The notes below the pieces were generated by a model that was given only the letters and a program-made list of their open reading frames with translations, was not told the DNA's origin and did not search any database. The position numbers and the translations under genes were made by a program. Below are positions 54,863 to 62,800 of a DNA stretch of 64,000 bases, one piece after another. Every line of letters starts with the position of its first letter. The stretch's first letter is position 1. The stretch lies in the IMG/VR virus record IMGVR_UViG_3300045988_100041; one strand, 5' to 3'. Source of the DNA: a virus.

Positions 54863-55153
54863 TTATAGGTTTGAAAGCGTTCCGTCACCGATGACGACGG
54901 CGTTTGTGAGGTCGCTGCCAAGGACAAAGACTGTGACCTGAGAGCCGACAGGCGCACTTGCGATGCTCGAAACATAGGGAAGGGCGATTTCTTTGTCGAA
55001 GGGGCGCTGGACGGTGAGCTTGCCGCCGGAGGCTCTTTTTGTGACCTCGGCGCGGAAGAACCAGACATTTGAATGCGTCAGCTCTTCGACCTTTGGCTTA
55101 AAATAATCCCAGAGCCTGTCTGCAAAGCGTTTCATTTCCAGATTTTCATCCAT
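54863..55153 (-). CDS. small OB-fold-like protein (gpV/Gp138-N-like pattern, uncertain)
   Basis: ATG after CAGGAGGAACTTCCA. GGKLTVQRPFDKEIALPYVSSIASAPVGSQVTVFVLGSDLTNAVVIGDG. Confidence 0.45.
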   Translation of the reverse strand: MDENLEMKRFADRLWDYFKPKVEELTHSNVWFFRAEVTKRASGGKLTVQRPFDKEIALPYVSSIASAPVGSQVTVFVLGSDLTNAVVIGDGTLSNL

Positions 55154-55349
55154 TGGAAGTTCCTCCTGTTCTGGATTCTTCAATCAGTATCGTAAAGAAT
55201 CGATCTTCCGGCAGTTTCAGCGCCGCAGAATCAACGCTTTCGGCTTCAACGGTGATGATTTCGTTCGGTCTGTCATCACGGTAAACGACTTCGAAGGTGT
55301 ATTTTTGTTTTACTACGTTTGATCTGAGATCCAGCGTCATTCTTTCCAC
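55146..55349 (-). CDS. hypothetical protein
   Basis: Track ORF. Overlaps both neighbours. Confidence 0.45.
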   Translation of the reverse strand: MERMTLDLRSNVVKQKYTFEVVYRDDRPNEIITVEAESVDSAALKLPEDRFFTILIEESRTGGTSNG

Positions 55350-55687
55350 ACTCCCTGAACGCCGAAGGTGATGCGCAGGGTTTCTCCGGACGGCGCGGCA
55401 AAACTCACATCGTCGGCACTTGCAATGAGGGCAGATAGTCTTTTGCGGACGCTTTCGTTGAAAATTCCAACAGGAAGGGGAATGTCCAGCATGACCATAG
55501 CGTTTCGCGCGGTGTTTTCCGGGGGACGGACGGTAACGGCTGCGTGCATGAGGTGCGCGAGTTCTTCTGCCTGACGGCGAAGGTCTGCAAAGAGGTTCAT
55601 TTTCTCTTCATCAACAGAGGTTCCACGGAAGTTTTCATTTCGTTCGAGCATGGCTTCTACCATGGCGGCGGTTTTGGGATCTGTCAT
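55337..55687 (-). CDS. hypothetical protein
   Basis: ATG after AAAAGGAGAACTTATT. Confidence 0.5.
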   Translation of the reverse strand: MTDPKTAAMVEAMLERNENFRGTSVDEEKMNLFADLRRQAEELAHLMHAAVTVRPPENTARNAMVMLDIPLPVGIFNESVRKRLSALIASADDVSFAAPSGETLRITFGVQGVWKE

Positions 55688-55749
55688 AATAAGTTCTCCT
55701 TTTCAAATTGAGTTTTGATCGTCTACATATTGGATTCTACCGGGAATTT

Positions 55750-56859
55750 TCAGTTGTCCCGCTTTGCGGAAAGATTTTTCAGTTCTTTCACACACTGCGC
55801 AGTGATTTTCACTGCTTCATCGATCTTGGCAAAGTCTTTTTCCTGTTCGGCTCCGAATCTTGGCTGATATTCGTCCATCGGAAGCCGGAGCGTATAGTCA
55901 AAAGAAAACCGGACGGCGCTTCGGGCGCGTTCTTCCTGGTATCCAGCGGCAAGCAGGACTCTCGACGGCTTATTGTCTCCGCTGGAACACGCCGCACCGC
56001 CAGACACCATGACATTCTCAGAAGAAAGTCTCAGGACAAGGGCGGTATTTTCAACGCCTGGGAACGAGATATTTGCGATATAGGGAGACTGCGAAGATTT
56101 GTTTCCTTCGTAGACGCTGCCGTTTAATTTTGCGTCCGGGATCTCGTTCATCATACCATCAATGAGCCGGTCGTGCAAGCGGCCTGCCATTTCTGCAAAC
56201 TCCGCAAGATGCTGTGTCCGGAACCAGAGCGCCTGAGAAAACGCCGCAGCGAGTGCGACAGAAGGGGTTGCGAAATGTTCCAGTTCATAGATGCTTTCCG
56301 GATCTTTTGCAATCAGAACACCGATGCCGACGGGCGCGCCGAATTTATGGCCGCCGCCTGCAATGTAGTCGATTCCGTCCGACTTGTAATTGAGCTGGAA
56401 TTTTCCCATGGCTGCGGTGCAGTCGGAAAAGCATACATTCCACGCGCCTGTGTTTTCTAGGTCGTAAATGAATCCGGTTTCGTTGCAGGTGTGGATATGC
56501 GCAAGAGCGGCTTCTTTTTTGCGGGACCTGCTGTGAATCTTACCGTAATCGGGAAGTCTTTTATAGACTGCGTCGTGTTCGTAGGAAGAACAAAGCGCGT
56601 CTCGATAATCGTTCAGGAGGCGAAGCGCTGCAAGGCGGCAGCTTTCGGTGGCGCTGGATGTGAAGATGACCTGCTCCGGTTCGCAGTTTATGCACGCTGC
56701 GACGATTTTTTTCTGTTCCTGCAAAAAGGCGTTGTTTCTTGTCCCGCTTGCGTGGATGCTGTTTGGATTCCCGACTTCACCACGGCATACCCTTGCAAAT
56801 TCGCGCATGGATGAGGAAAGCACCGGCGATGTGGCTGCGTAGTCGAGGTAGATCAGCAT
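55750..56859 (-). CDS. class-V aminotransferase / cysteine desulfurase (NifS/IscS-like)
   Basis: YLDYAATSP, GNPNSIH, SSYEHDAV, FSDCTAA, GGGHKFGAPVGIGVL (PLP lysine) and VSGGAACSSG (active-site Cys loop). Confidence 0.8.
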   Translation of the reverse strand: MLIYLDYAATSPVLSSSMREFARVCRGEVGNPNSIHASGTRNNAFLQEQKKIVAACINCEPEQVIFTSSATESCRLAALRLLNDYRDALCSSYEHDAVYKRLPDYGKIHSRSRKKEAALAHIHTCNETGFIYDLENTGAWNVCFSDCTAAMGKFQLNYKSDGIDYIAGGGHKFGAPVGIGVLIAKDPESIYELEHFATPSVALAAAFSQALWFRTQHLAEFAEMAGRLHDRLIDGMMNEIPDAKLNGSVYEGNKSSQSPYIANISFPGVENTALVLRLSSENVMVSGGAACSSGDNKPSRVLLAAGYQEERARSAVRFSFDYTLRLPMDEYQPRFGAEQEKDFAKIDEAVKITAQCVKELKNLSAKRDN

Positions 56860-57368
56860 GGCGCGGTCCCTCCGAAGTTTGGAACGAAGGAAGAAAGAAG
56901 CTGATGATAGAACTTATTTTGCGCCTGCAGCTCAATGCACCGCTCTTTCAGCGAGGATAGTTCTGCGTCCGGTTCTTTGGAAACGGGAAGCACGCCGGAA
57001 GGCCCCGGATTTTTGGGTTCATTTGCGCCGCTCAGACCGATGGACACCAGAAGGGCGCTGTCTACGAGCTGCATTTCATGCTGCTCCAAGGTCGAGATAT
57101 AGCTTCCAAGGCGTTCTTTGCTGACGGTATAGATGTTTTCACACAGGACGGTATTTTTCACGCCTTTCATTGTGATTTCCACGTGCGTCGGAAGGGGCTT
57201 TTTCTTCTCTGCGGTCGTTAAGTAGCAGATCTCTATGTTCGGAGAAAATAGGTTATTTTTCTCGTTTGAAACGACAACGGCAGGTCTTGACTTGCGAATT
57301 TCACTTCCAAGCCCGTCTTTCCAGTTATCTACCCAGAAAATATCGCCGCGATGGATGCTACGTTCCAT
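56853..57368 (-). CDS. MazF/PemK-fold toxin-like protein with C-terminal extension
   Basis: IHRGDIFWVDNWKDGLGSEIRKSRPAVVVSNEKNN ... ICYLTTAEKKKPLPTHVEI ... LCENIYTVSKERL, plus a roughly 60-aa tail. Its stop overlaps the desulfurase start by 7 nt. Confidence 0.7.
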   Translation of the reverse strand: MERSIHRGDIFWVDNWKDGLGSEIRKSRPAVVVSNEKNNLFSPNIEICYLTTAEKKKPLPTHVEITMKGVKNTVLCENIYTVSKERLGSYISTLEQHEMQLVDSALLVSIGLSGANEPKNPGPSGVLPVSKEPDAELSSLKERCIELQAQNKFYHQLLSSFVPNFGGTAPC

Positions 57369-57469
57369 TTCTTTCGTCCTTTCTTTCACATTTTTCTATG
57401 TACGGCGGCACGTCCGCACGATATGCCGCCTATTCAGTTTAATTGCGTTTGAACTGAATATTGAGGGTG

Positions 57470-57742
57470 TTATCTCACTGCGTCTTTCAGCGCCTTTGCG
57501 GGGCTGAAACGAACGACGAAGTGCTGGGGAACGTCGATGGTTTTGCCGGTATTCGGATTTCTCGACTGCTTGCTGGCGCAGTATTTCGCGGCGAATTTGC
57601 CGAAGCCCGGAACGTTCACGGTGTCATGCACGATGAGCGCTTCCTGCACCGCATCGAACACGGCATTTACTGCGCAGATCGCCTGCGTCTTCGGAACGTC
57701 CATCCGGTTCGCTACGGCGGTTACGAGTTCGTCTTTGTTCAT
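57470..57742 (-). CDS. hup: HU/IHF-family DNA-binding protein
   Basis: MNKDELVTAVANRMDV ... VPGFGKFAAKYCASKQSRNPNTGKTIDVPQHFVVRFSPAKALKDAV. Confidence 0.9.
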   Translation of the reverse strand: MNKDELVTAVANRMDVPKTQAICAVNAVFDAVQEALIVHDTVNVPGFGKFAAKYCASKQSRNPNTGKTIDVPQHFVVRFSPAKALKDAVR

Positions 57743-57769
57743 GATTTTCCTCCTTTCCCGAAAATTTCA

Positions 57770-57845
57770 TGGTGAGCCGTCCCGGAGTCGAACCGAGATT
57801 TTACCAGTTATGAGCTGGTCGCTCTAGCCTTTGAGATAACGGCCC
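57770..57845 (-). tRNA. tRNA-Met or tRNA-Ile2 (anticodon CAU)
   Basis: Hand-folded cloverleaf. Acceptor GGGCCGU/ACGGCUC, anticodon arm ACCAG-CUCAUAA-CUGGU, T-arm CUCGG-UUCGACU-CCGGG, encoded ACCA. The D-stem has one mismatch. Confidence 0.8.
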
Positions 57846-58221
57846 ATCGATTCCGGCTTGACGTACCGGCCGCGAGGTCTTGTGCACAGACCAACGGCAA
57901 ATCAGGTGATTGCACACCGTCTCCACCTTGTTATCCTCATGATGGACGATCTGAGTGGGGAGTTCCCATTTCGCTTGTTTACTCCCAAACTTCGCTATCG
58001 GCTATATCAACCCGACGACACCGCTGCCAGATGCGGAGGTTTCATTCCATCGGGGGAAGTCATCCGATGGCGGGCATGGGCGGCTTGGCAGAATCGAACT
58101 GCCTCGGGTCAGTTGCTCGTCGCTTCCCTTTACCAAATGCCGCGTGTTGCCACACTGACGCAGTGGCCGCGGAGGGTTGGCTTTATTTATAACGCGCCAC
58201 GACTCCCACAAGAGGGCGCTT
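57846..58221 (-). ncRNA. non-coding GC-rich spacer with T-loop-like hairpin; candidate part of a large structured RNA
   Basis: No credible ORF. Hairpins include GGCAG-TTCGATT-CTGCC (58087-58103, minus sense), CATCGG/CCGATG, GGTCT/AGACC and GCGCC/GGCGC. Strand is inferred from the neighbouring genes. Confidence 0.3.
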
Positions 58222-58380
58222 TGGCGGATGCGGCGGGGATTTGAACCCCGCATGGTGCAGACAGTATGCGACGAGCTTTATTCCCGTCCGAGGTGGCTGC
58301 TTGAACCCCAATAGGTTTGAGTGTGCCGCGCTTTCCTGCACCGCATACCCTTGCTACCTTTTCCATTCGGCCACGCATCC
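58222..58380 (-). ncRNA. 159-nt tRNA-like RNA with greatly extended central arm
   Basis: Nested perfect 7-bp helices 58226-58232/58374-58380 and 58264-58270/58342-58348. T-arm CGGGG-UUCAAAU-CCCCG. Class-II-like D-arm UGGCCGAAUGGAAAAGGU. 3' end is G-CCA. Confidence 0.45.
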
Positions 58381-58389
58381 ATATTTTGC

Positions 58390-58713
58390 TCAGATTTTTG
58401 CGGTACAGCGGTATTTGCAGGTTTTCCAGTCCGCGAGGCTGCACGACTCGAAGATGCAGGGTGATCCGGCGTACTCCGGCTTGTCGCAGAATTCGTGGAT
58501 CAGCTCCGGATACAGGGCGTTCATTGCAAAAAGGTTTCTTGCCGAATCCGGCCCGACAAACATCGGCTTTCCTTTCGGTGCGTAGTCACGGATCTGATAG
58601 GGGATTTCGTCCCGTTCGCTGTAGAAATGGACCGCGACCGGCGTCACGTCCTTCTCTACGACGACGTAGACATTTTTCGTGCCGTTGGTGAGATAGCGAA
58701 TGTCCAAGCTCAT
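58390..58713 (-). CDS. hypothetical protein embedded in the RNA locus
   Basis: ATG after AAGGAGGAAAACAA, inside track ORF 58390..58827. 107 aa, no motif recognised. Confidence 0.55.
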   Translation of the reverse strand: MSLDIRYLTNGTKNVYVVVEKDVTPVAVHFYSERDEIPYQIRDYAPKGKPMFVGPDSARNLFAMNALYPELIHEFCDKPEYAGSPCIFESCSLADWKTCKYRCTAKI

Positions 58714-59081
58714 TTGTTTTCCTCCTTGCTTTGTTTTCTTGGTTTTGTACAGCCTGCCTCCCGGCTCCGGAGCCGCCGTTACTCGACGCCTAGACGCTCC
58801 CGTGCAGAAGTTGGTCTGCGTCGCCACGCCGGTTTTTCTTCCATCCTTTACGCCTCACAGCGGACTGTCGGAAGGCCGGGAGGGTAAGCCACGGAACTTT
58901 TCAGCCCTGCGCCGGTGCATCGGTCGCATCCGTTTTTTCACACATTAAGCCGGAGCCAGCTAATTAAATTCGCAATCTGTCGTACTTGCACTACCTACAG
59001 ATTGAGCGGATGGCCGGATATATCGTTTCACCAAGCCTTTGGAACCTCAAAACTTTCCCTGAGTCCGCCGCAATACCCATG

Positions 59082-59155
59082 TGGAGTGCGTGAGGAGAAT
59101 CGAACTCCCACCATCAGATTGGAAGTCTGATGTTCTGCCATTAAACTACACGCAC
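59082..59155 (-). tRNA. tRNA-Gly (anticodon UCC), copy 1
   Basis: Acceptor GUGCGUG/CACGCAC, anticodon arm UCAGA-CUUCCAA-UCUGA, T-arm GGGAG-UUCGAUU-CUCCU, U73 and CCA encoded. Confidence 0.9.
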
Positions 59156-59162
59156 ATAAATG

Positions 59163-59287
59163 GCTCCCCGTTTTACTCCGGTGCGGGAGCGTTCTTCCCG
59201 AAAACCCATAGCCAGGCTTCCCAGCTTGGAGCACCGGAATCTCTGAAATGTTCCGGTGAGCGCCTTCGCTTACATGGGTGACGCTTT
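59163..59287 (-). ncRNA. structured RNA repeat, copy A (125-nt core)
   Basis: Fills the gap between the two tRNA-Gly genes. Shares its fold with copy B, with compensatory substitutions (see finding at 59163-59610). Confidence 0.55.
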
Positions 59288-59295
59288 AAAGAGTA

Positions 59296-59369
59296 TGGAG
59301 CGGCATACGGGAGTTGAACCCGCGTTTTCAGATTGGAAGTCTGACGTGCTTCCGCTGCACCAATGCCGC
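59296..59369 (-). tRNA. tRNA-Gly (anticodon UCC), copy 2
   Basis: Acceptor GCGGCAU/AUGCCGC, D-stem GUGC/GCAC, anticodon arm UCAGA-CUUCCAA-UCUGA, T-arm GCGGG-UUCAACU-CCCGU, U73 and CCA encoded. Confidence 0.9.
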
Positions 59370-59493
59370 ATAAGGCGCGCATAGGATGGAAGAGGTACAA
59401 GACCATCCCATGCACTTCCGGTCTTTCCCGGCTGCCAGAACAATCCCTATGGAGGGGCAGGCGGGAGGCTCGTGAACCACTGCCTGCATAGAA

Positions 59494-59610
59494 GCTCCCC
59501 ATTTTACTTGGGTGCGGGAGCGCTCCTACCCAAAACCAACAGCCAAGCTTCCCATCTTGGAGCGCCGGACGATTCCGGCGAGCGCCTGCGCTTACGTTGG
59601 CGGTCGCTTT
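59494..59610 (-). ncRNA. structured RNA repeat, copy B (117-nt core)
   Basis: Aligns with copy A from AAAGCG to GGGGAGC. All helices are conserved through paired changes. Confidence 0.55.
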
Positions 59611-59668
59611 TCTGCACAGAAAGGAGACATTACGCCTCGCCGCAGCAGCACAGAAGGGAGCTGCGGCA

Positions 59669-59739
59669 TGGTGGGAAAATGCGGAATTGAACCGCAGCAT
59701 GAAGGCTTTATGTTCCTCCCTAGCGCACCTGCTTTTCCC
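59669..59739 (-). ncRNA. aberrant tRNA-like element
   Basis: Canonical acceptor GGGAAAA/UUUUCCC, T-arm UGCGG-UUCAAUU-CCGCA and ACCA. There is no foldable D-arm, and the anticodon-like arm GGAGG/CCUUC carries a 9-nt loop AACAUAAAG. Confidence 0.4.
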
Positions 59740-59768
59740 GCATGGCGTGACGGGTCACGCCTTGTTTT

Positions 59769-60869
59769 CTATGCGATCTCCGACCGGCTTTTTTTGACGG
59801 TAGGCTGCGGCCGGAGGTTTGAGAAAAAATCATCGCCCTGCATTTCAAGATACCGCTTGTTGCGGTCTGCCTGACGGTCTTTTTCTTCCTGCACAAGAAG
59901 CGTCTGGCGGCGTTTCCTGCGGCTGGTGAGTTTGCCGGAATAGATCTGCGTGACTTCTGCCGATTCATGCCCGAGCTTTGCTTGCAGTTCTTCCAGAGGC
60001 ATGCCGCCGTTGAGATCGAGCCGCGCGCCGACGTGCCGCAGGTCGTGGGACCGGACATTATCTACACCTGTCACGCGCTTTACATGGCGGCGGACAAGCT
60101 CTGTCAGCCATTGACGGCTGCCGGCGTGCCAGGATTCTGCGTTGAAGTTTCTGGACGTTCTGACTTTTTCTGCGCAGGTTCCAAAGAGCGGGTCATCGTC
60201 TTTTGCATAGGAAGGGCGGATGCCGCTTTTAAGATAGAGCCTTACGGCGGTCTGCGCGATGGGCGGGAAGTCTACAACGCGGTATTTGTTGCCCTTGCCG
60301 TGCTCTACGGTCAGCTCTTCGTTTTCCCAGTCCAAGTCGGCAGGCGTGAGGGCGAGAAGTTCGCAGTTTCTGATCTCTGTGGACAGAAACAGGACGGCGA
60401 TTGCATAGTTTCGCTCCCATTCCGGAACGCCGCTTGATTTTGGGGAGTTGTTCCGCCACAAAAGTGCCGCCTGTTCGTCGGTCAGAATCTGGTCATAGGG
60501 TCTTGCATCTTCCTGACGGGTGTCCGGCATGAGGAATTTGGAGACGGGGTTTTTGTCATAAAAGCGGTAGTCTCCAAGCTGGGGAGACGAGGCGTATTCA
60601 TAAAATCCGGAAAGAACTTTCAGATACTGCTTGACGGTGGACGGTTTTCTGCCGGTTGCAAGCAGCATATCACGCCACGCCTGAATGTCTGTGAAGGATA
60701 CCTCGTGGTTCCAGTTGTCCCGATCTTCAATCATAAAGAGGCTGAACAGTTTTATCACGTTGTCGATATTTTCAACCGTATTTTCTGAGCGCCCGATGGC
60801 GATCATGTTTGAACGGTAGGAACGGTAGGCTTCCATGAACTTCTTTTCTTCCTTGATGGGCGGTGCCAT
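59769..60869 (-). CDS. second tyrosine recombinase/integrase (XerC/D-like)
   Basis: N-terminal SAM-like core-binding region, then SHDLRHVGARL and LGHESAEVTQIYSG. ATG after AAAGGAGCAATACAT. Confidence 0.85.
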   Translation of the reverse strand: MAPPIKEEKKFMEAYRSYRSNMIAIGRSENTVENIDNVIKLFSLFMIEDRDNWNHEVSFTDIQAWRDMLLATGRKPSTVKQYLKVLSGFYEYASSPQLGDYRFYDKNPVSKFLMPDTRQEDARPYDQILTDEQAALLWRNNSPKSSGVPEWERNYAIAVLFLSTEIRNCELLALTPADLDWENEELTVEHGKGNKYRVVDFPPIAQTAVRLYLKSGIRPSYAKDDDPLFGTCAEKVRTSRNFNAESWHAGSRQWLTELVRRHVKRVTGVDNVRSHDLRHVGARLDLNGGMPLEELQAKLGHESAEVTQIYSGKLTSRRKRRQTLLVQEEKDRQADRNKRYLEMQGDDFFSNLRPQPTVKKSRSEIA

Positions 60870-60914
60870 ATGTATTGCTCCTTTCTGTTTTCACTATATC
60901 AAATGGAAAAAGCG

Positions 60915-60930
60915 AATGTGCAACATGGGA
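60915..60930 (-). promoter_or_regulatory. repeated promoter/operator box, copy 1 (upstream of integrase 2)
   Basis: Minus-sense TCCCATGTTGCACATT contains a TTGCAC -35-like hexamer, with GATATA/TATAGT downstream. Near-identical to the box at 61704-61720. Confidence 0.4.
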
Positions 60931-60958
60931 ATTTATTATCTTCCGGCTATCTTTTCTT

Positions 60959-60992
60959 CTGCCGGGGAGCGGGAGTTTGTCCCGCCCGGCAG
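60959..60992. repeat. GC-rich hairpin repeat, copy 1
   Basis: CTGCCGG-GGAGCGGGA-GTTTG-TCCCGC-CCGGCAG, preceded by ATCTTTTCTT. Directly after the stop of ORF 61001..61168. Confidence 0.5.
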
Positions 60993-61000
60993 GAAAATAT

Positions 61001-61168
61001 TTAATACGTCCAGTTCTTTAAGATCTCAGAGCCAAACTGAATGCGCGGACGGAAGCGACCGCAGGTATTTTCGTTCATGCGCCGCGCGGCGGCTCTTGCT
61101 TCTTCCAGGGTCTGGTAGGTTCCGACGAGAATCGGAGTATCGAAAAATGTATCGTAAAGGAAATACAT
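61001..61168 (-). CDS. small hypothetical protein (55 aa)
   Basis: ATG shares its A with the upstream TGA (TGATG). MYFLYDTFFDTPILVGTYQTLEEARAAARRMNE... Confidence 0.4.
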   Translation of the reverse strand: MYFLYDTFFDTPILVGTYQTLEEARAAARRMNENTCGRFRPRIQFGSEILKNWTY

Positions 61169-61398
61169 CACAGAACCCCCACACTCTTTGTAATAGCGCA
61201 GCAGGCGGCGATTGCGAGGATACAGGCGGCGGCGAGAACGAGGGCAATGAATCTGCGTTCTTTGATTTTGCGGCGCTTGTTGGCGGCGTAGGCGTTTCTG
61301 GCGCGCACCTGATCGGCGTGGTGACAGACGATGTGGCTGAAAACATCCTCGGGAAGAAGCTCCGGGACGCAGGCGATGGCGGTACATTTCTTTTTCAT
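61168..61398 (-). CDS. small tail-anchored membrane protein
   Basis: Internal ATG of track ORF 61168..61446. C-terminal hydrophobic FIALVLAAACILAIAACCAI. Confidence 0.4.
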   Translation of the reverse strand: MKKKCTAIACVPELLPEDVFSHIVCHHADQVRARNAYAANKRRKIKERRFIALVLAAACILAIAACCAITKSVGVL

Positions 61399-61456
61399 TG
61401 GTATGGTCTCCTTTTTGAATTTTCTACAGGCGCGGACGCCCGGCATCTTTTCTTCT

Positions 61457-61490
61457 GCCGGGGAAGCGGGATTTGTCCCGCTTCCCCCGG
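61457..61490. repeat. GC-rich hairpin repeat, copy 2
   Basis: CCGGGGAAGCGGGA-TTTG-TCCCGCTTCCCCCGG, preceded by the same ATCTTTTCTTCTG. Directly after the stop of the 40-aa ORF. Confidence 0.5.
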
Positions 61491-61500
61491 AGAAATTGGG

Positions 61501-61623
61501 TCATTTTTTGTTTTCCTGTTCGCGAAGAAGCTCCTGTATCTTTTCTTCGAGAAGCTTTTTCTGCTCGTCGGTCAGTCGTGAAACAATTTTCAAAAGTTCC
61601 ACGGTTTCGTTTTCGTTTTTCAT
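61501..61623 (-). CDS. small hypothetical protein (40 aa, below the track cutoff)
   Basis: ATG after GTCAGGAGGTACGCAG. Hand-translated as MKNENETVELLKIVSRLTDEQKKLLEEKIQELLREQENKK. Confidence 0.35.
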   Translation of the reverse strand: MKNENETVELLKIVSRLTDEQKKLLEEKIQELLREQENKK

Positions 61624-61703
61624 CTGCGTACCTCCTGACTTAATCGTTCCTTTTTGTTTGGGGATTCATCATCCTATTATTAGGATACCAATCGCAAAAA
61701 GGA

Positions 61704-61720
61704 AATGTGCAACATAGGGA
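61704..61720 (-). promoter_or_regulatory. repeated promoter/operator box, copy 2
   Basis: Minus-sense TCCCTATGTTGCACATT. About 80 nt upstream of the 40-aa ORF. Confidence 0.4.
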
Positions 61721-61721
61721 G

Positions 61722-61928
61722 CTACGCGGTGACGATTTCGGTCAGTACGTCGATGGATGCGTCTACGTGACCGTCAACGATGTTGAAGTAGACGGTTTTT
61801 ATGACGAAGTTTCCGATGCCTTTCATAATGACGGGGCTTGCCAGATCGACATTGTTAGAGCCGCCGTCCACGCAGACGTGCCAGCGGGTCACATTTAGAG
61901 ATGTTTCGTATAGTTCTTTGATGGTCAT
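61722..61928 (-). CDS. hypothetical protein
   Basis: Internal ATG of track ORF 61722..61943. Confidence 0.4.
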   Translation of the reverse strand: MTIKELYETSLNVTRWHVCVDGGSNNVDLASPVIMKGIGNFVIKTVYFNIVDGHVDASIDVLTEIVTA

Positions 61929-61949
61929 TGTGATTCCTCCCATATAAAA

Positions 61950-62747
61950 TCAGGCAATTTTTGCTGCCGCGAGGCTCGCGGCTTTACGCTGGACGATGCT
62001 TGTGAAGATCTCGCAGAGTTTTACATCCTGAGAAATGACGGCGAGTTTGCTGACTGCCTGACACTCGGCATATTTTGCGCCGCCCTGCTTCATGCGTTTG
62101 CGCAGGTTGTTCAGGCGCGTGTCAATGTTGCAGTGAGCGGATTCTTCCAGTTCTTTGTAGAGCTGACCGGTGAAGGTCTGGAAGTTCAGCTCGTATTCCA
62201 TGCAGAGCTGACGGATTTTATTTCGCATGGCATCCTGCCAGCTGTTCCGGTCTACGGATGGGGCGGCCAGTTCGGAGAATGCGGTCTGCATGGCACTGTG
62301 GATCTGTTTCTGCCCAGATTCCAAAGCGGTCAGGCGGCGTTCCTGTTCTACCATGATTTGCGCTTGCGCAAGAAGCTGCTCCGCTGGGGTTGATGCTCGC
62401 GCCTGTTCCTTGGCGCGGAAGTATCCCTTGACAAGTTCACGCTGCACTCTCCACGCCAGATCGTCCGTGAAAGACTTTACCAGCATGAGGTATCCGGATT
62501 CTGTGATGAGCGTCACGTCTTCCGTAGCCTTTGCCGGAATGTCGTTCCAGTGCGTCCGAAATTCGGACGCGCAAATTTTGAAGTAATCTTCTCCGTCAAC
62601 GAACCGCTCCCGGTTGTCGTTGAAGCGCTTTCTTGCCGTTCCGTCAGGTCTGCCATGCACGGCGTCAATGTCCTTGAACGTCACGACACGCTGTCCTTGA
62701 TATTCCTTCACGGAAATGTCTGTATTGTTGATGGTCTGCAATTTCAT
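61950..62747 (-). CDS. ORF6N-domain antirepressor-like protein (Ant-like)
   Basis: VKEYQGQRVVTFKDIDAVHGRPDGTARKRFNDNRERFVDGEDYFKI ... LITESGYLMLVKSF. Confidence 0.7.
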   Translation of the reverse strand: MKLQTINNTDISVKEYQGQRVVTFKDIDAVHGRPDGTARKRFNDNRERFVDGEDYFKICASEFRTHWNDIPAKATEDVTLITESGYLMLVKSFTDDLAWRVQRELVKGYFRAKEQARASTPAEQLLAQAQIMVEQERRLTALESGQKQIHSAMQTAFSELAAPSVDRNSWQDAMRNKIRQLCMEYELNFQTFTGQLYKELEESAHCNIDTRLNNLRKRMKQGGAKYAECQAVSKLAVISQDVKLCEIFTSIVQRKAASLAAAKIA

Positions 62748-62800
62748 TTCAAAAATTCCTCCTGTCACTTAAAAAAGGGTATAAAAATCCCACGCATGAC

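What the first reader, a model, noticed from the sequence alone, without database searches (positions are those of the whole stretch)
58222..58380. 159-nt tRNA-like RNA: acceptor, D- and T-arms intact but the anticodon arm is replaced by a long insertion
On the minus strand, GGAUGCG (58380-58374) pairs perfectly with CGCAUCC (58232-58226), followed by G and CCA. A canonical T-arm CGGGG-UUCAAAU-CCCCG lies next to the 3' strand. A class-II-style D-arm UGGCCGAAUGGAAAAGGU follows the 5' strand.

Where the anticodon arm should be there is GCA/UGC plus a second perfect 7-bp helix, GUAUGCG (58348-58342) with CGCAUAC (58270-58264). This helix encloses about 71 nt.

The ends resemble a tRNA-Ser-type molecule with a G discriminator, but no standard anticodon loop can be drawn. 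Possible readings are an intron-containing or insertion-disrupted tRNA, a tRNA mimic, or one domain of a bigger RNA.
Basis: seen in the sequence. Interest (0 to 1): 0.65.

Follow-up and report, generated by a model that had tools for sequence, protein, structure and literature searches.

The report
Phage tRNA look-alike without an anticodon
A gut-phage gene encodes a 159-base RNA that keeps every part of a transfer RNA except the part that reads codons, which is replaced by a conserved ~100-base folded insert, so it is most likely a tRNA mimic and not a working or spliced tRNA.

Summary
On the minus strand, 58380..58222 has a perfect 7-bp acceptor stem, a class-II-type D arm, a canonical T loop, a discriminator base and an encoded CCA. 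There is no anticodon loop. ARAGORN and Rfam do not call it; the Rfam tRNA model aligns only the ends, at 24.4 bits against a threshold of 29.

The same 159-nt unit occurs in 84 fetched loci from human-gut phage and metagenome contigs, as 29 variants. D and T stems carry compensatory double changes. Other helix changes are almost all wobble-compatible. Diversity is about three times lower than in the co-inherited spacer.

The unit joins five different 5' flanks and three 3' flanks exactly at G1 and CCA. It is absent from phages whose upstream flank is 98% identical. In some relatives an IS605/TnpB element splits it.

No intron, ribozyme, tmRNA or Sec features were found, and no deletion gives a consistent tRNA.

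Best reading: a dispensable, selectively maintained tRNA mimic. A tRNA body serves for processing and stability and carries a conserved structured domain. It may be chargeable by LeuRS (A73) or SerRS (G73 in this window). Function is untested. I rate it a new variant of a known kind, of moderate interest.

The parts
58222..58380 (-). Whole 159-nt tRNA-like RNA (E1), from G1 to the encoded CCA
   Evidence: Sequence. RF00005 aligns it end to end at 24.4 bits. Covariance model R1 finds full-length copies at 200-211 bits in related loci. It joins different flanks exactly at these ends.
58374..58380 (-). Acceptor stem, 5' strand GGAUGCG
   Evidence: Pairs perfectly with 58232-58226. Across 29 variants the only change is C6 to U, which keeps a U-G pair.
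58226..58232 (-). Acceptor stem, 3' strand CGCAUCC
58222..58225 (-). Discriminator (G here, A in 27 of 29 variants) plus the encoded CCA
58356..58371 (-). Class-II-type D arm: 3-bp stem GCC/GGU and loop GAAUGGAAAA carrying A14, A15 and the G18G19 equivalents
   Evidence: Compensatory change C11-G24 to A11-U24 in 2 of the 29 variants, carried by the L031 and L113 loci. C25/U25 keeps a G-C or G-U pair.
58233..58251 (-). T arm: 6-bp stem GCGGGG/CCCCGC and loop UUCAAAU
   Evidence: Compensatory change G132-C146 to U-A in L048, wobble changes at three other positions, and one mismatch in L001.
58343..58354 (-). GCA-AGGGUA-UGC. This is either a 3-bp mini hairpin in the anticodon-arm position, or GCA is the start of an anticodon stem that pairs with UGC at 58257-58259
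   Evidence: RNAalifold predicts the mini hairpin. The single-sequence MFE and RF00005 give the GCA/UGC long-range pairing. The segment is invariant in 29 variants, so neither reading is tested by covariation.
58254..58342 (-). Conserved structured insert, element positions 39-127. Read as a giant variable arm (fold A) or, together with 58343-58348, as an extension of the anticodon arm (fold T)
   Evidence: Folds. Pair counts give fold A 99.8% of cells paired and fold T 99.0%. G55A makes an A-U pair in fold A but an A.C mismatch in fold T.
58342..58348 (-).
   Evidence: Perfect and invariant. Mutually exclusive with the helix 58335-58342 / 58254-58261.
58264..58270 (-). CGCAUAC, 3' strand of the inner 7-bp helix
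58295..58304 (-). Hypervariable apical loop, element positions 77-86
   Evidence: Variable columns 78, 82, 84, 85 and 86 cluster here. All are unpaired in fold A.
58291..58320 (-). Site where relatives carry an IS605/TnpB element. Positions 61-70 are replaced, and positions 71-90 abut the IS right end, so they would be the omega-RNA guide match
   Evidence: There is no IS copy in this window.
58144..58221 (-). Spacer that travels with E1 in most genomes and contains two hairpins
   Evidence: Diversity is 0.080, against 0.028 for E1.

Best explanation
E1 is a real, selectively maintained, accessory phage gene for a tRNA mimic that cannot decode.

**Shown**
- It has an intact tRNA body. This comprises a 7-bp acceptor stem, a discriminator, an encoded CCA, U8, A14, a D loop with GG, a T loop UUCAAAU with G53-C61, and a class-II-type 3-bp D stem.
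- It has no 5-bp/7-nt anticodon stem-loop. About 100 conserved, structured nucleotides sit in that place.
- It is a discrete module whose boundaries are the mature tRNA ends.
- It lies in the same orientation inside a phage array of tRNAs and other aberrant tRNA-like units.
- It is more constrained than the spacer beside it.
- It is dispensable: present or absent between near-identical phages, and split by an IS in some.

**Inferred**
- The array transcript is cut by RNase P at G1 and trimmed to the CCA. The tRNA body therefore works as a processing and stability scaffold, like the engineered 'tRNA scaffold' and like tmRNA or YrlA tRNA-like domains.
- The scaffold displays the conserved insert. 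The insert is the functional payload, most plausibly a binding platform or decoy for a host or phage protein that handles tRNA.
- The A73 forms carry the elements reported to suffice for E. coli LeuRS even without an anticodon arm: A73, A14, A15 with U48, and the G18G19/T-loop elbow.
- The window's G73 form carries Ser-type elements: G73, G2-C71, A3-U70, C11-G24, and a long extra arm in fold A. The RNA may therefore be aminoacylated without ever reading a codon.
- The 13-bp (7/6) acceptor/T stack may keep it away from EF-Tu.
For: **tRNA-like ends.** See the sequence. RF00005 aligns acceptor, D arm, variable loop and T arm around a 92-nt insertion at 24.4 bits, E = 0.003 in 176 nt.

**No anticodon arm.** ARAGORN in default, intron and tmRNA modes finds nothing. 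Rfam finds nothing.

**Conservation and selection**
- 84 loci and 29 variants, all 158-159 nt.
- Double compensatory changes at 11:24 and 132:146.
- All other single changes in the outer helices are C-to-U opposite G, apart from one mismatch.
- The number of cells with a change on both sides was reached by only 1 of 500 shuffles for fold T and 0 of 500 for fold A. The slid-partner controls pair 32-50% of cells, against 99-99.8% for the structures themselves.
- Diversity is 0.019 in the outer part and 0.033 in the interior, against 0.080 in the spacer, 0.104 in E2 and 0.50 upstream.

**Module boundaries.** Five different 5' flanks and three 3' flanks join exactly at G1 and CCA.

**Accessory nature.** L071 and L072 share 98% identity upstream but lack E1. 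An IS605/TnpB insertion occurs in some contigs, and the copies in two of those contigs (117763 and 090719) show further damage, CCA to CAA and G96A/G97A.

**Not a host-tRNA fragment.** A metagenome scan with the T-arm/acceptor 24-mer returned 29 contigs, all E1, and no canonical tRNA.

**Chargeability.** PMC9976931 reports three relevant points. E. coli tRNA-Leu variants lacking the anticodon and variable arms stay active if A73 and the D/T-loop interactions are kept. A73 to G73 switches Leu identity to Ser. Serine identity does not depend on the anticodon.
Against: - No expression data exist. Nobody has shown a 159-nt RNA, RNase P cleavage, modification or charging.
- All copies are at least 96% identical, so part of the conservation reflects recent spread. 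Only two pairs show double changes.
- The insert's fold is not resolved. Two mutually exclusive perfect helices are both invariant, and a third fold is the MFE for the commonest variant.
- C67A, present in 10 loci, breaks a pair in both folds.
- One lineage (L001) has a T-stem mismatch.
- The element is dispensable, and no partner protein is consistently linked. The upstream 107-aa ORF also occurs without E1.
- No sigma-70-like promoter was found in 57600-59800.
- No antisense target was found in the window.
- The 13-bp stack could shift or impair RNase P cleavage.
Confidence: 0.55

Rival explanations
1. It is a charged, non-decoding tRNA mimic. In this sharper version of the best reading, aminoacylation is the point of the molecule. 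E1 is leucylated (A73) or serylated (G73). It then either titrates the synthetase or EF-Tu, or hands the amino acid to a non-ribosomal acceptor such as an aminoacyl-tRNA-dependent transferase.
For: - A73, A14, A15 with U48, and the G18G19/T-loop elbow are all present.
- Published work summarised in PMC9976931 says these suffice for E. coli LeuRS without an anticodon arm, and that A73/G73 toggles Leu/Ser identity.
- The discriminator is polymorphic: G in 2 variants, A in 27.
- The encoded CCA is kept in all intact copies.
- Fold A gives a class-II architecture with a long extra arm.
Against: - No transferase or synthetase gene is linked. The neighbours are an integrase, a 107-aa Cys-rich ORF, a MazF-like toxin and a NifS-like desulfurase.
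- The identity rules come from E. coli, not from the unknown host.
- The 7/6 stack and the huge insert might block synthetases.
- Nothing here tests charging.
Confidence: 0.2
2. It is a decaying pseudogene. A phage class-II tRNA gene was wrecked by an insertion or rearrangement in its anticodon region. It survives only because the cassette spread recently among related phages.
For: - Very low diversity, with 98% mean column identity.
- Presence or absence between near-identical phages.
- An IS insertion is tolerated.
- L001 has a T-stem mismatch.
- The array also holds other aberrant tRNA-like units.
- Internal near-repeats suggest a past duplication or rearrangement: GGAUGCG and GUAUGCG, CGCAUCC and CGCAUAC, GGGGUUCAAAU and GGGGUUCAAGC.
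Against: - E1 is about three times less diverse than the spacer and E2 inherited with it.
- There are two independent double compensatory changes.
- In the outer helices, every single change but one is C-to-U opposite G, and no G-to-A opposite C is seen.
- Variable columns cluster in predicted loops.
- The length is fixed at 159 nt (one lineage 158) in 84 loci.
- IS-split copies show extra damage that intact copies lack.
Confidence: 0.15
3. It is an intron-containing tRNA. The insert is spliced out to give a functional class-I or class-II tRNA.
For: The insert sits where tRNA introns sit. The two flanking helices would bring the 'exon' ends together.
Against: - No group I, group II or small-ribozyme family matches even at E<=10.
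- The enclosed 71 nt (a 92-nt gap in the tRNA alignment) is far below self-splicing intron size.
- There is no bulge-helix-bulge at the junction, and bacteria lack that endonuclease (established knowledge).
- Removing 33-117 leaves a 3-nt 'loop'.
- The exhaustive deletion scan gives no consistent product.
- No intron-less allele was found in the viral or metagenome scans.
Confidence: 0.04
4. It is one domain of a larger structured RNA that spans the whole non-coding stretch, comprising E1, the spacer, E2 and the conserved downstream RNA.
For: - 58380..57919 is continuous non-coding, conserved, structured sequence.
- The downstream RNA always abuts a CCA end and shows covariation.
Against: - The modules recombine freely. 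E1 is followed directly by the downstream RNA in 8 loci, and by the spacer plus E2 (with or without a third unit) in others.
- The downstream RNA follows tRNA-Gly in phages without E1.
- No large-RNA family such as ROOL or GOLLD matches.
Confidence: 0.05
5. It is an attP-type remnant. The tRNA-like 3' half would be a copy of a host tRNA gene end used by the neighbouring integrase.
For: An integrase gene lies 1.4 kb away (59769-60869). Phages often integrate in tRNA genes (established knowledge).
Against: - Both halves of the cloverleaf are present and they co-vary.
- No canonical tRNA with this 3' end turned up in the viral or metagenome scans.
- E1 is absent from phages whose upstream flank (59287-58394) is 98% identical.
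Confidence: 0.02

Closest known systems
[quoted passage not shown]
   Same: - 7-bp acceptor stem starting GGA
- U8 and A14
- 3-bp D stem with a long D loop carrying GG
- Canonical T loop and encoded CCA
- Discriminator A73 (Leu-type) or G73 (Ser-type)
- In fold A, a long extra arm that starts right after the anticodon-arm position and ends 2 nt before the T stem
   Different: - No 5-bp/7-nt anticodon stem-loop and no U33
- The extra arm is 89 nt instead of about 13-21 nt
- The T stem has 6 bp, giving a 13-bp stack
- Below the Rfam tRNA threshold and not called by ARAGORN
tmRNA tRNA-like domain
   Same: The 5' and 3' ends form an acceptor stem with CCA next to a T arm. The anticodon arm is replaced by a long helix that leads into further structure.
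   Different: - A3-U70 instead of the G3.U70 alanine determinant
- A full D arm is present
- Only 159 nt, with no tag reading frame or pseudoknot ring
- ARAGORN's tmRNA mode finds nothing
Bacterial and phage Y RNAs (YrlA), PMC4201824
   Same: - A non-coding RNA with D-arm and T-arm mimicry that is a substrate for tRNA enzymes
- Also phage-encoded
- The tRNA module has been proposed to protect or process the RNA
   Different: - YrlA is permuted. Its ends lie in the Ro60-binding stem, at the anticodon-arm position, and its 'acceptor' is closed.
- YrlA sits next to a Ro60/Rsr gene.
- E1 has open acceptor ends with CCA, no Ro60 gene among the seven flanking ORFs scanned (54863-62768), and no Rfam match.
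Engineered 'tRNA scaffold' chimeras (Ponchon and Dardel; PMC3753655)
   Same: The architecture is the same as fold T. An RNA of interest replaces the anticodon loop of a tRNA, so that the cell processes and stabilises it as a tRNA.
   Different: That is a laboratory design, not a natural family. Whether E1's insert is a payload remains an inference.
Non-canonical natural tRNAs: tRNA-Sec and allo-tRNAs (PMC5389517)
   Same: - Ser-like acceptor and long extra arm
- Unusual acceptor/T geometry, 13 bp as in tRNA-Sec
- Found in phage tRNA clusters and near toxin-antitoxin genes
   Different: - Those are 8/5, 9/4, 8/4 or 9/3 and keep a working anticodon loop.
- E1 is 7/6 with no anticodon loop.
- RF01852 scores 18.9 bits against a threshold of 47.
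Viral and cellular tRNA-like processing modules (MHV68 tRNA-miRNA units, MALAT1 mascRNA)
   Same: tRNA-like units that are not used in decoding and serve as RNase P/Z processing signals in longer transcripts. RF01684 gives a weak match to the T arm and acceptor (22 bits).
   Different: - Those are eukaryotic systems.
- The match is below threshold (42.5 bits).
- E1 carries its own conserved insert, rather than only flanking another RNA.

Membership tests
Canonical tRNA (Rfam RF00005) | 7-bp acceptor stem, discriminator and 3' CCA | tested here: met
   58380-58374 pairs with 58232-58226, followed by G and CCA. All seven pairs are kept in 29 variants.
Canonical tRNA (Rfam RF00005) | D arm with the conserved GG, T arm with a UUCRANY loop and G53-C61 (elbow) | tested here: met
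   Compensatory changes occur in both stems.
Canonical tRNA (Rfam RF00005) | 5-bp anticodon stem with a 7-nt loop and U33 | tested here: not met
   ARAGORN makes no call in default or intron mode. RF00005 needs a 92-nt insertion in that arm. The only 7-nt loop, AAUAAAG, has A at position 33.
Canonical tRNA (Rfam RF00005) | Score at or above the curated gathering threshold (29 bits) | tested here: not met
   24.4 bits. Not reported in the whole-window or 1.9-kb searches.
Canonical tRNA (Rfam RF00005) | 12-bp acceptor/T stack (7/5) | tested here: not met
   An extra G130-C148 pair gives 7/6 = 13 bp. That pair is invariant, so it is not tested by covariation.
Intron-containing tRNA | A recognisable self-splicing intron core (group I or II) or a bulge-helix-bulge | tested here: not met
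   No intron or ribozyme family matches at E<=10. The helix encloses only 71 nt (92-nt gap in the tRNA alignment). The junction has 1-nt and 2-nt bulges.
Intron-containing tRNA | Removing one segment restores a canonical anticodon arm, the same in all homologues | tested here: not met
   930 deletion products were tested per sequence. They gave only scattered ARAGORN calls with many different anticodons, and the calls differed between the window and the commonest variant.
Intron-containing tRNA | A spliced RNA product | not testable with these tools
   This needs RNA-seq or a Northern blot.
tmRNA | G3.U70 alanine determinant, tag reading frame and pseudoknots | tested here: not met
   The pair is A3-U70. 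ARAGORN -m finds nothing. The only tmRNA-family match is 10.2 bits on a neighbouring T arm.
tRNA-Sec (RF01852) | 13-bp acceptor/T stack arranged 8/5, UCA anticodon and long extra arm | tested here: not met
   The stack is 13 bp but arranged 7/6. There is no UCA loop. The score is 18.9 bits against a threshold of 47.
YrlA / bacterial Y RNA | Ends in a Ro60-binding stem, a closed 'acceptor', and a neighbouring Ro60/Rsr gene | tested here: not met
   The acceptor is open and carries CCA. The seven scanned neighbours in 54863-62768 include an integrase, a 107-aa ORF, a MazF-like toxin, a NifS-like enzyme, an ORF6N anti-repressor and two small ORFs with no family match, and none is Ro60. There is no Rfam match.
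allo-tRNA (8/4, 9/3) | 12-bp stack with a lengthened acceptor and shortened T stem, plus a functional anticodon loop | tested here: not met
   The stack is 7/6 and there is no anticodon loop.
tRNA mimic / tRNA-like non-coding RNA (functional class, not a sequence family) | tRNA elbow and acceptor features kept by selection in an RNA that cannot decode | tested here: met
tRNA mimic / tRNA-like non-coding RNA (functional class, not a sequence family) | Recognition by tRNA enzymes (RNase P, CCA enzyme, modification enzymes, synthetases) | not testable with these tools
   This is inferred from the sequence features and from the module boundaries falling at G1 and CCA.

The most novel reading that the evidence does not exclude
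E1 may be the first natural example of an anticodon-less but chargeable class-II tRNA mimic. The phage would make a stable RNA that LeuRS (A73 forms) or SerRS (G73 forms, as in this window) aminoacylates, but that can never enter decoding.

Such an RNA could be used in phage-host conflict in several ways:
- as a decoy for tRNA-targeting nucleases or toxins;
- as a sink for a synthetase or EF-Tu;
- as an amino-acid donor for a non-ribosomal transferase.

It would be one member of a set of tRNA-like cassettes that gut phages swap exactly at their mature ends, within an array that TnpB elements also target.
Probability: 0.15. Interest if true: 0.8.

Novelty: new variant of a known kind. Interest (0 to 1): 0.55.

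Why it matters
Phage tRNA arrays are now seen as counter-defence tools against tRNA-cleaving host systems. This array also carries RNAs that keep the tRNA body but have given up decoding, which standard annotation by ARAGORN and Rfam misses entirely.

If E1 is processed and stable, it is a natural counterpart of the laboratory tRNA scaffold. It would also be a new tRNA-mimic type alongside tmRNA and YrlA.

If E1 is charged, it would separate aminoacylation from decoding in a natural RNA. A one-base Leu/Ser switch is already polymorphic in the population.

The locus also offers two ready natural experiments. One is presence or absence between near-identical phages. The other is the set of TnpB-disrupted alleles.

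Tried and rejected
- **ARAGORN in intron and relaxed modes, and tmRNA mode.** The default intron mode gives no call at E1. Below-threshold runs give only obvious false positives.
- **Rfam at gathering and at E<=10, on the window, 1.9 kb, 176 nt, the 89-nt insert and the downstream 380 nt.** Only sub-threshold matches to tRNA, tRNA-Sec and mascRNA on the tRNA-like ends.
- **'Cloverleaf inside a cloverleaf'.** In fold T the insert is a four-way junction with a 7-bp closing helix. The tRNA model does not recognise the insert, and fold T fits the variation slightly worse than fold A.
- **Exhaustive in-silico splicing.** No consistent product.
- **Antisense or sRNA target search in the window.** Only chance-level matches. 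A 14-nt same-strand repeat at 57654-57641 (E = 0.03) was not pursued.
- **Origin from a co-resident tRNA.** blastn-short of E1's ends and insert against 53 distinct tRNAs called in the related loci gave no hits.
- **Host identification.** The genome-contig scan gave one chance hit, inside an unrelated stretch of a Faecousia MAG contig with no tRNA-like element around it.
- **Coding potential.** A 1-nt indel in the D loop in one lineage and non-periodic variable columns argue against any ORF across E1.
- **Functional link to the upstream 107-aa Cys-rich ORF.** Rejected. The ORF occurs without E1, and E1 occurs about 960 nt away from it.
- **CRISPR-repeat reading of the downstream RNA's AAUGAAAC motif.** The match is only 17 bits, and the 'spacer' is itself conserved and structured.
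- **Literature searches.** No description of this RNA was found.
Full report
**1. What is in the sequence**

Read on the minus strand, window 58380..58222 is 159 nt. I number it 1-159, so that window coordinate = 58381 minus position. Its layout is as follows.

- GGAUGCG (1-7), then U8 and G9.
- A D arm GCC-GAAUGGAAAA-GGU (10-25), then A26.
- GCA (27-29), followed by a long interior.
- UGC (122-124), then ACCAU.
- A T arm G-CGGGG-UUCAAAU-CCCCG-C (130-148).
- CGCAUCC (149-155), then G156 and CCA.

Three refinements apply.

- The T stem has six pairs. An extra C148 pairs with G130, so the acceptor/T stack is 13 bp (7/6).
- A competing perfect helix exists: GGUGCAGG (39-46) with UCUGCACC (120-127).
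- The G discriminator is specific to this lineage.

**2. What the detectors say**

ARAGORN calls three ordinary tRNAs in the window: Met at 57770-57845, and Gly-UCC at 59082-59155 and 59296-59369. It calls nothing at E1, even in intron or tmRNA mode. Rfam at curated thresholds finds the same three tRNAs.

With permissive filters on 176 nt, the tRNA model aligns E1 end to end. It scores 24.4 bits (threshold 29, E = 0.003) by placing a 92-nt insertion in the anticodon arm. tRNA-Sec scores 18.9 against a threshold of 47, and mascRNA scores 22 against 42.5. No intron, ribozyme, tmRNA or Y-RNA family appears.

E1 is therefore tRNA-like at both ends by an independent model, but it fails the curated definition of a tRNA.

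**3. Genomic setting**

The window is a temperate phage. The relevant features, all on the minus strand, are listed below.

| Feature | Coordinates |
|---|---|
| Tyrosine integrase | 59769-60869 |
| 107-aa protein with four invariant cysteines and no known family | 58390-58713 |
| MazF/PemK-like toxin | 56853-57389 |
| NifS/IscS-like cysteine desulfurase | 55750-56859 |

E1 lies in the non-coding stretch between them. It has the same orientation as the tRNAs and starts 9 nt after the stop codon of the small ORF.

Related contigs all come from uncultivated viral or metagenome assemblies; two metagenome records are titled human gut, and the one GenBank relative (MT835520) is from human faeces. 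The GenBank phage collection has no copy of E1. The host is unknown, because the single genome scan gave only a chance hit.

**4. Comparative evidence that E1 is a real, constrained unit**

Pattern scans and protein-anchored retrieval gave 84 loci with an intact copy and 29 distinct variants. All are 159 nt, except one lineage at 158 nt.

The outer helices change as follows.

- The D stem shows C11-G24 to A11-U24 in 2 of the 29 variants.
- The T stem shows G132-C146 to U132-A146.
- The other changes are C-to-U opposite G, at positions 6, 25, 131 and 145.
- There is one mismatch, in L001.

The number of cells with a change on both sides was reached by only 1 of 500 shuffles for fold T and 0 of 500 for fold A. 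Sliding the 3' partners by 1-3 columns drops pairing from 99-99.8% to 32-50%.

Among 31 loci with the same arrangement, pairwise diversity is as follows.

| Region | Diversity |
|---|---|
| E1 overall | 0.028 |
| E1 tRNA-like ends | 0.019 |
| E1 interior | 0.033 |
| 75-nt spacer inherited with E1 | 0.080 |
| Next unit (E2) | 0.104 |
| Upstream 120 nt | 0.50 |

Because sequences are so close (98% mean column identity), this is moderate rather than overwhelming evidence. It does argue against simple hitch-hiking of a dead gene.

**5. E1 is a discrete, mobile, dispensable module**

It joins five unrelated 5' flanks and three 3' flanks exactly at G1 and at the terminal A of CCA. In eight loci the 3' neighbour is directly a conserved downstream RNA. 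In most others it is a spacer followed by further tRNA-like units.

Phages L071 and L072 are 98% identical to the window over the 900 nt upstream, yet they lack E1 and its spacer altogether.

In five contigs a 1.33-kb IS605-family element splits E1 after position 60. The element encodes a TnpB with OrfB_IS605, Cas12f1-like TNB and HTH domains. The copies in two of those five contigs carry further damage, CCA to CAA and G96A/G97A.

Boundaries that coincide with mature tRNA ends are what one expects if the functional unit is the processed RNA.

**6. The interior**

Two nested folds compete.

- **Fold T.** It extends the anticodon stem (GCAAG with UCUGC, including one A.C mismatch) through GUAUGCG/CGCAUAC into a junction with three hairpins.
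- **Fold A.** This is the RNAalifold consensus. It makes a 3-bp mini hairpin (GCA-AGGGUA-UGC) in the anticodon-arm position, then an 89-nt 'variable arm'. The arm opens with the 8-bp helix 39-46/120-127, continues with GCGRC/GUCGC (52-56/109-113), and ends in a hairpin whose 10-nt loop holds the hypervariable columns 78-86.

On 29 variants, fold A pairs 99.8% of cells and fold T pairs 99.0%. The frequent G55A change makes an A-U pair in fold A but an A.C mismatch in fold T. C95G and G84U are neutral in fold A and disruptive in fold T. A125G gives a U-G pair in fold A.

I therefore lean to fold A, a class-II tRNA body with a stunted anticodon arm and a giant extra arm. The key helices are invariant, so the choice is open. 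A switch between the two folds cannot be excluded. In neither fold is there a usable anticodon loop.

**7. Readings tested and set aside**

- **Intron.** No intron family matches, the size is too small, there is no bulge-helix-bulge, and no intron-less allele was found. An exhaustive deletion scan gives only scattered, mutually inconsistent ARAGORN calls.
- **tmRNA.** The pair is A3-U70, there is no tag, and ARAGORN makes no call.
- **tRNA-Sec and allo-tRNA.** The geometry is wrong and there is no anticodon.
- **YrlA.** The topology is permuted and there is no Ro60 neighbour.
- **attP remnant.** Both halves are present, and no canonical tRNA shares the 3' 24-mer among the 29 metagenome and 30 viral hits.
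- **Coding.** A 1-nt indel and non-periodic variation argue against it.
- **Antisense regulator of a phage gene.** No target stands above chance.

**8. How it most likely works**

*Shown.* E1 has a selectively maintained tRNA body without a decoding arm. It carries a conserved structured insert and sits as a discrete accessory cassette in a phage tRNA array.

*Inferred from established tRNA biology.*
- RNase P and 3' trimming need only the acceptor/T minihelix, the elbow and the CCA. The array transcript should therefore release a stable 159-nt RNA.
- The body would serve as a processing and stability scaffold, as in engineered tRNA scaffolds (PMC3753655) and as proposed for YrlA (PMC4201824). 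The insert would be the working part, most plausibly a protein-binding platform or decoy.

*Possibility of charging.* The A73 forms carry A73, A14, A15 with U48, and the G18G19/T-loop elbow. A review (PMC9976931) reports that E. coli tRNA-Leu lacking both the anticodon and variable arms is still leucylated if A73 and the D/T-loop contacts are kept. It also reports that A73 to G73 switches identity to serine, and that serine identity ignores the anticodon. This window's copy has G73 plus G2-C71, A3-U70 and C11-G24. Charging without decoding is therefore a concrete, testable possibility. I give it about 0.2.

*Main rival.* A recently spread pseudogene, at about 0.15.

**9. Comparison with known systems and novelty**

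E1 works like a tRNA mimic, as do tmRNA's tRNA-like domain, YrlA and viral tRNA-like processing units. Its layout matches the laboratory tRNA scaffold.

It is not a member of any of these families, nor of tRNA, tRNA-Sec or allo-tRNA. In each case a defining feature was tested and not met (see the membership table). It is absent from Rfam 15, and I found no description of it in the literature searches.

I rate it a new variant of a known kind, with interest 0.55. It is a clean, well-delimited candidate with natural knock-outs and a one-base identity polymorphism. However, it has no expression or functional data, and its sequence diversity is narrow.

**10. Other things seen**

The same array holds further unannotated RNAs.

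- A 67-nt mini tRNA-like unit (E2).
- A covarying, roughly 158-nt RNA that always starts right after a CCA end.
- In relatives, several other aberrant tRNA-like cassettes occupying interchangeable slots, together with full and miniature TnpB elements.

Details are in the 'noticed in passing' list.

Noticed in passing
window 57919-58076 (minus strand): A conserved structured RNA starts immediately after a CCA end. Its sequence is UGCCCGCC, a variable hairpin, then AAUGAAACCUCCGCAUCUGGCAG and onward.

It was found in 55 sequences (the window plus 54 loci). It is 99-100% identical among most E1-carrying phages compared with the window, and 86% identical in GenBank MT835520. Two lineages show compensatory changes: UCGG/CCGA to CCGG/CCGG, and GGGAG/CUCCC to GGGCG/CGCCC. 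The first hairpin is replaced by different hairpins in different phages.

It always abuts the CCA of tRNA-Gly(UCC), E1, E2 or a third tRNA-like unit. No Rfam family matches; the best hit is CRISPR-DR10 at 17 bits.
   Followed up: partly
window 58077-58143 (minus strand): A 67-nt mini tRNA-like unit (E2). Its acceptor is GCGGCAU with AAGCCGC, and its T arm is GGCAG-UUCGAUU-CUGCC. It has no recognisable D or anticodon arms.

The T stem covaries, as GGCCG/CGGUC in L001 and L071, and GAGUG/CACUC in L040. In this window the discriminator appears to have been lost through a deletion that also removed a third unit present in most relatives.
   Followed up: partly
L086 4525-5850; also L012/L030, L004/L033, L027, L028, L029 (relatives; insertion point corresponds to window 58311-58320): A 1.33-kb IS605-family element encoding a 367-aa TnpB splits E1 in five contigs. 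Its right end reads ...GUGUCAA followed by UGGGGUUGAAGCAGCC, so its omega-RNA guide would match E1 positions 71-90.

The insertion replaces 10 nt (UCAAACCUAU) instead of being a clean insertion. Miniature copies holding only the omega-RNA scaffold sit elsewhere in the tRNA arrays, and 38 loci carry the scaffold motif. This window has none.
   Followed up: partly
L059 4694-4798, L069 1926-2030, L045 1179-1290, L041 12606-12720, L062 372-451 and 598-680, L037 2470-2551: Relatives carry other aberrant tRNA-like cassettes.

- A 105-nt unit starting GGAGAAG, again with a 7/6 stack, a weak anticodon arm and a long extra arm.
- A 112-115-nt unit starting GGAGAUG, with a roughly 10-nt 'anticodon' loop and a complex extra arm.
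- 80-83-nt units starting GCAGACG, whose anticodon regions differ between phages.

Identical flanks hold different cassettes, so units are exchanged exactly at their mature ends.
   Followed up: partly
window 58390-58713 (minus strand): A 107-aa protein family with four invariant cysteines (C76, C86, C91, C99). It has 45 clusters at 40-95% identity, all from metagenomes, and no Pfam, PHROG, NCBIfam or PADLOC match. It is often but not always next to the tRNA-like array.
   Followed up: partly
window 55750-57389 (minus strand): A MazF/PemK-like toxin with a roughly 60-aa C-terminal extension is followed by a divergent NifS/IscS-like cysteine desulfurase. The desulfurase also hits the SspA and DndA defence models. 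This pair, preceded by an HU-like gene in some relatives, is the conserved neighbour of the array. A link to tRNA cleavage or tRNA thiolation is possible but untested.
   Followed up: no
window 59082-59155 and 59296-59369 (minus strand): Two different tRNA-Gly(UCC) genes lie 140 nt apart, at 48% and 58% GC. The stretch 58080-59287, which contains the first of these, the small ORF and E1, is 97% identical in a phage that is otherwise 82-86% identical or unalignable (L001).
   Followed up: no
window 57641-57654 (minus strand): A 14-nt exact same-strand repeat of E1 positions 35-48 (AUGCGGUGCAGGAA) lies downstream of tRNA-Met. At E = 0.03 it may be chance.
   Followed up: no
window 57922-57940; L064 5596-5615 and 5828-5846: The motif AUAACAAGGUGGA recurs at the 3' end of the conserved downstream RNA. 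In L064 it recurs again after tRNA-Gln. It could be a processing or binding signal, or a ribosome-binding-site-like sequence.
   Followed up: no
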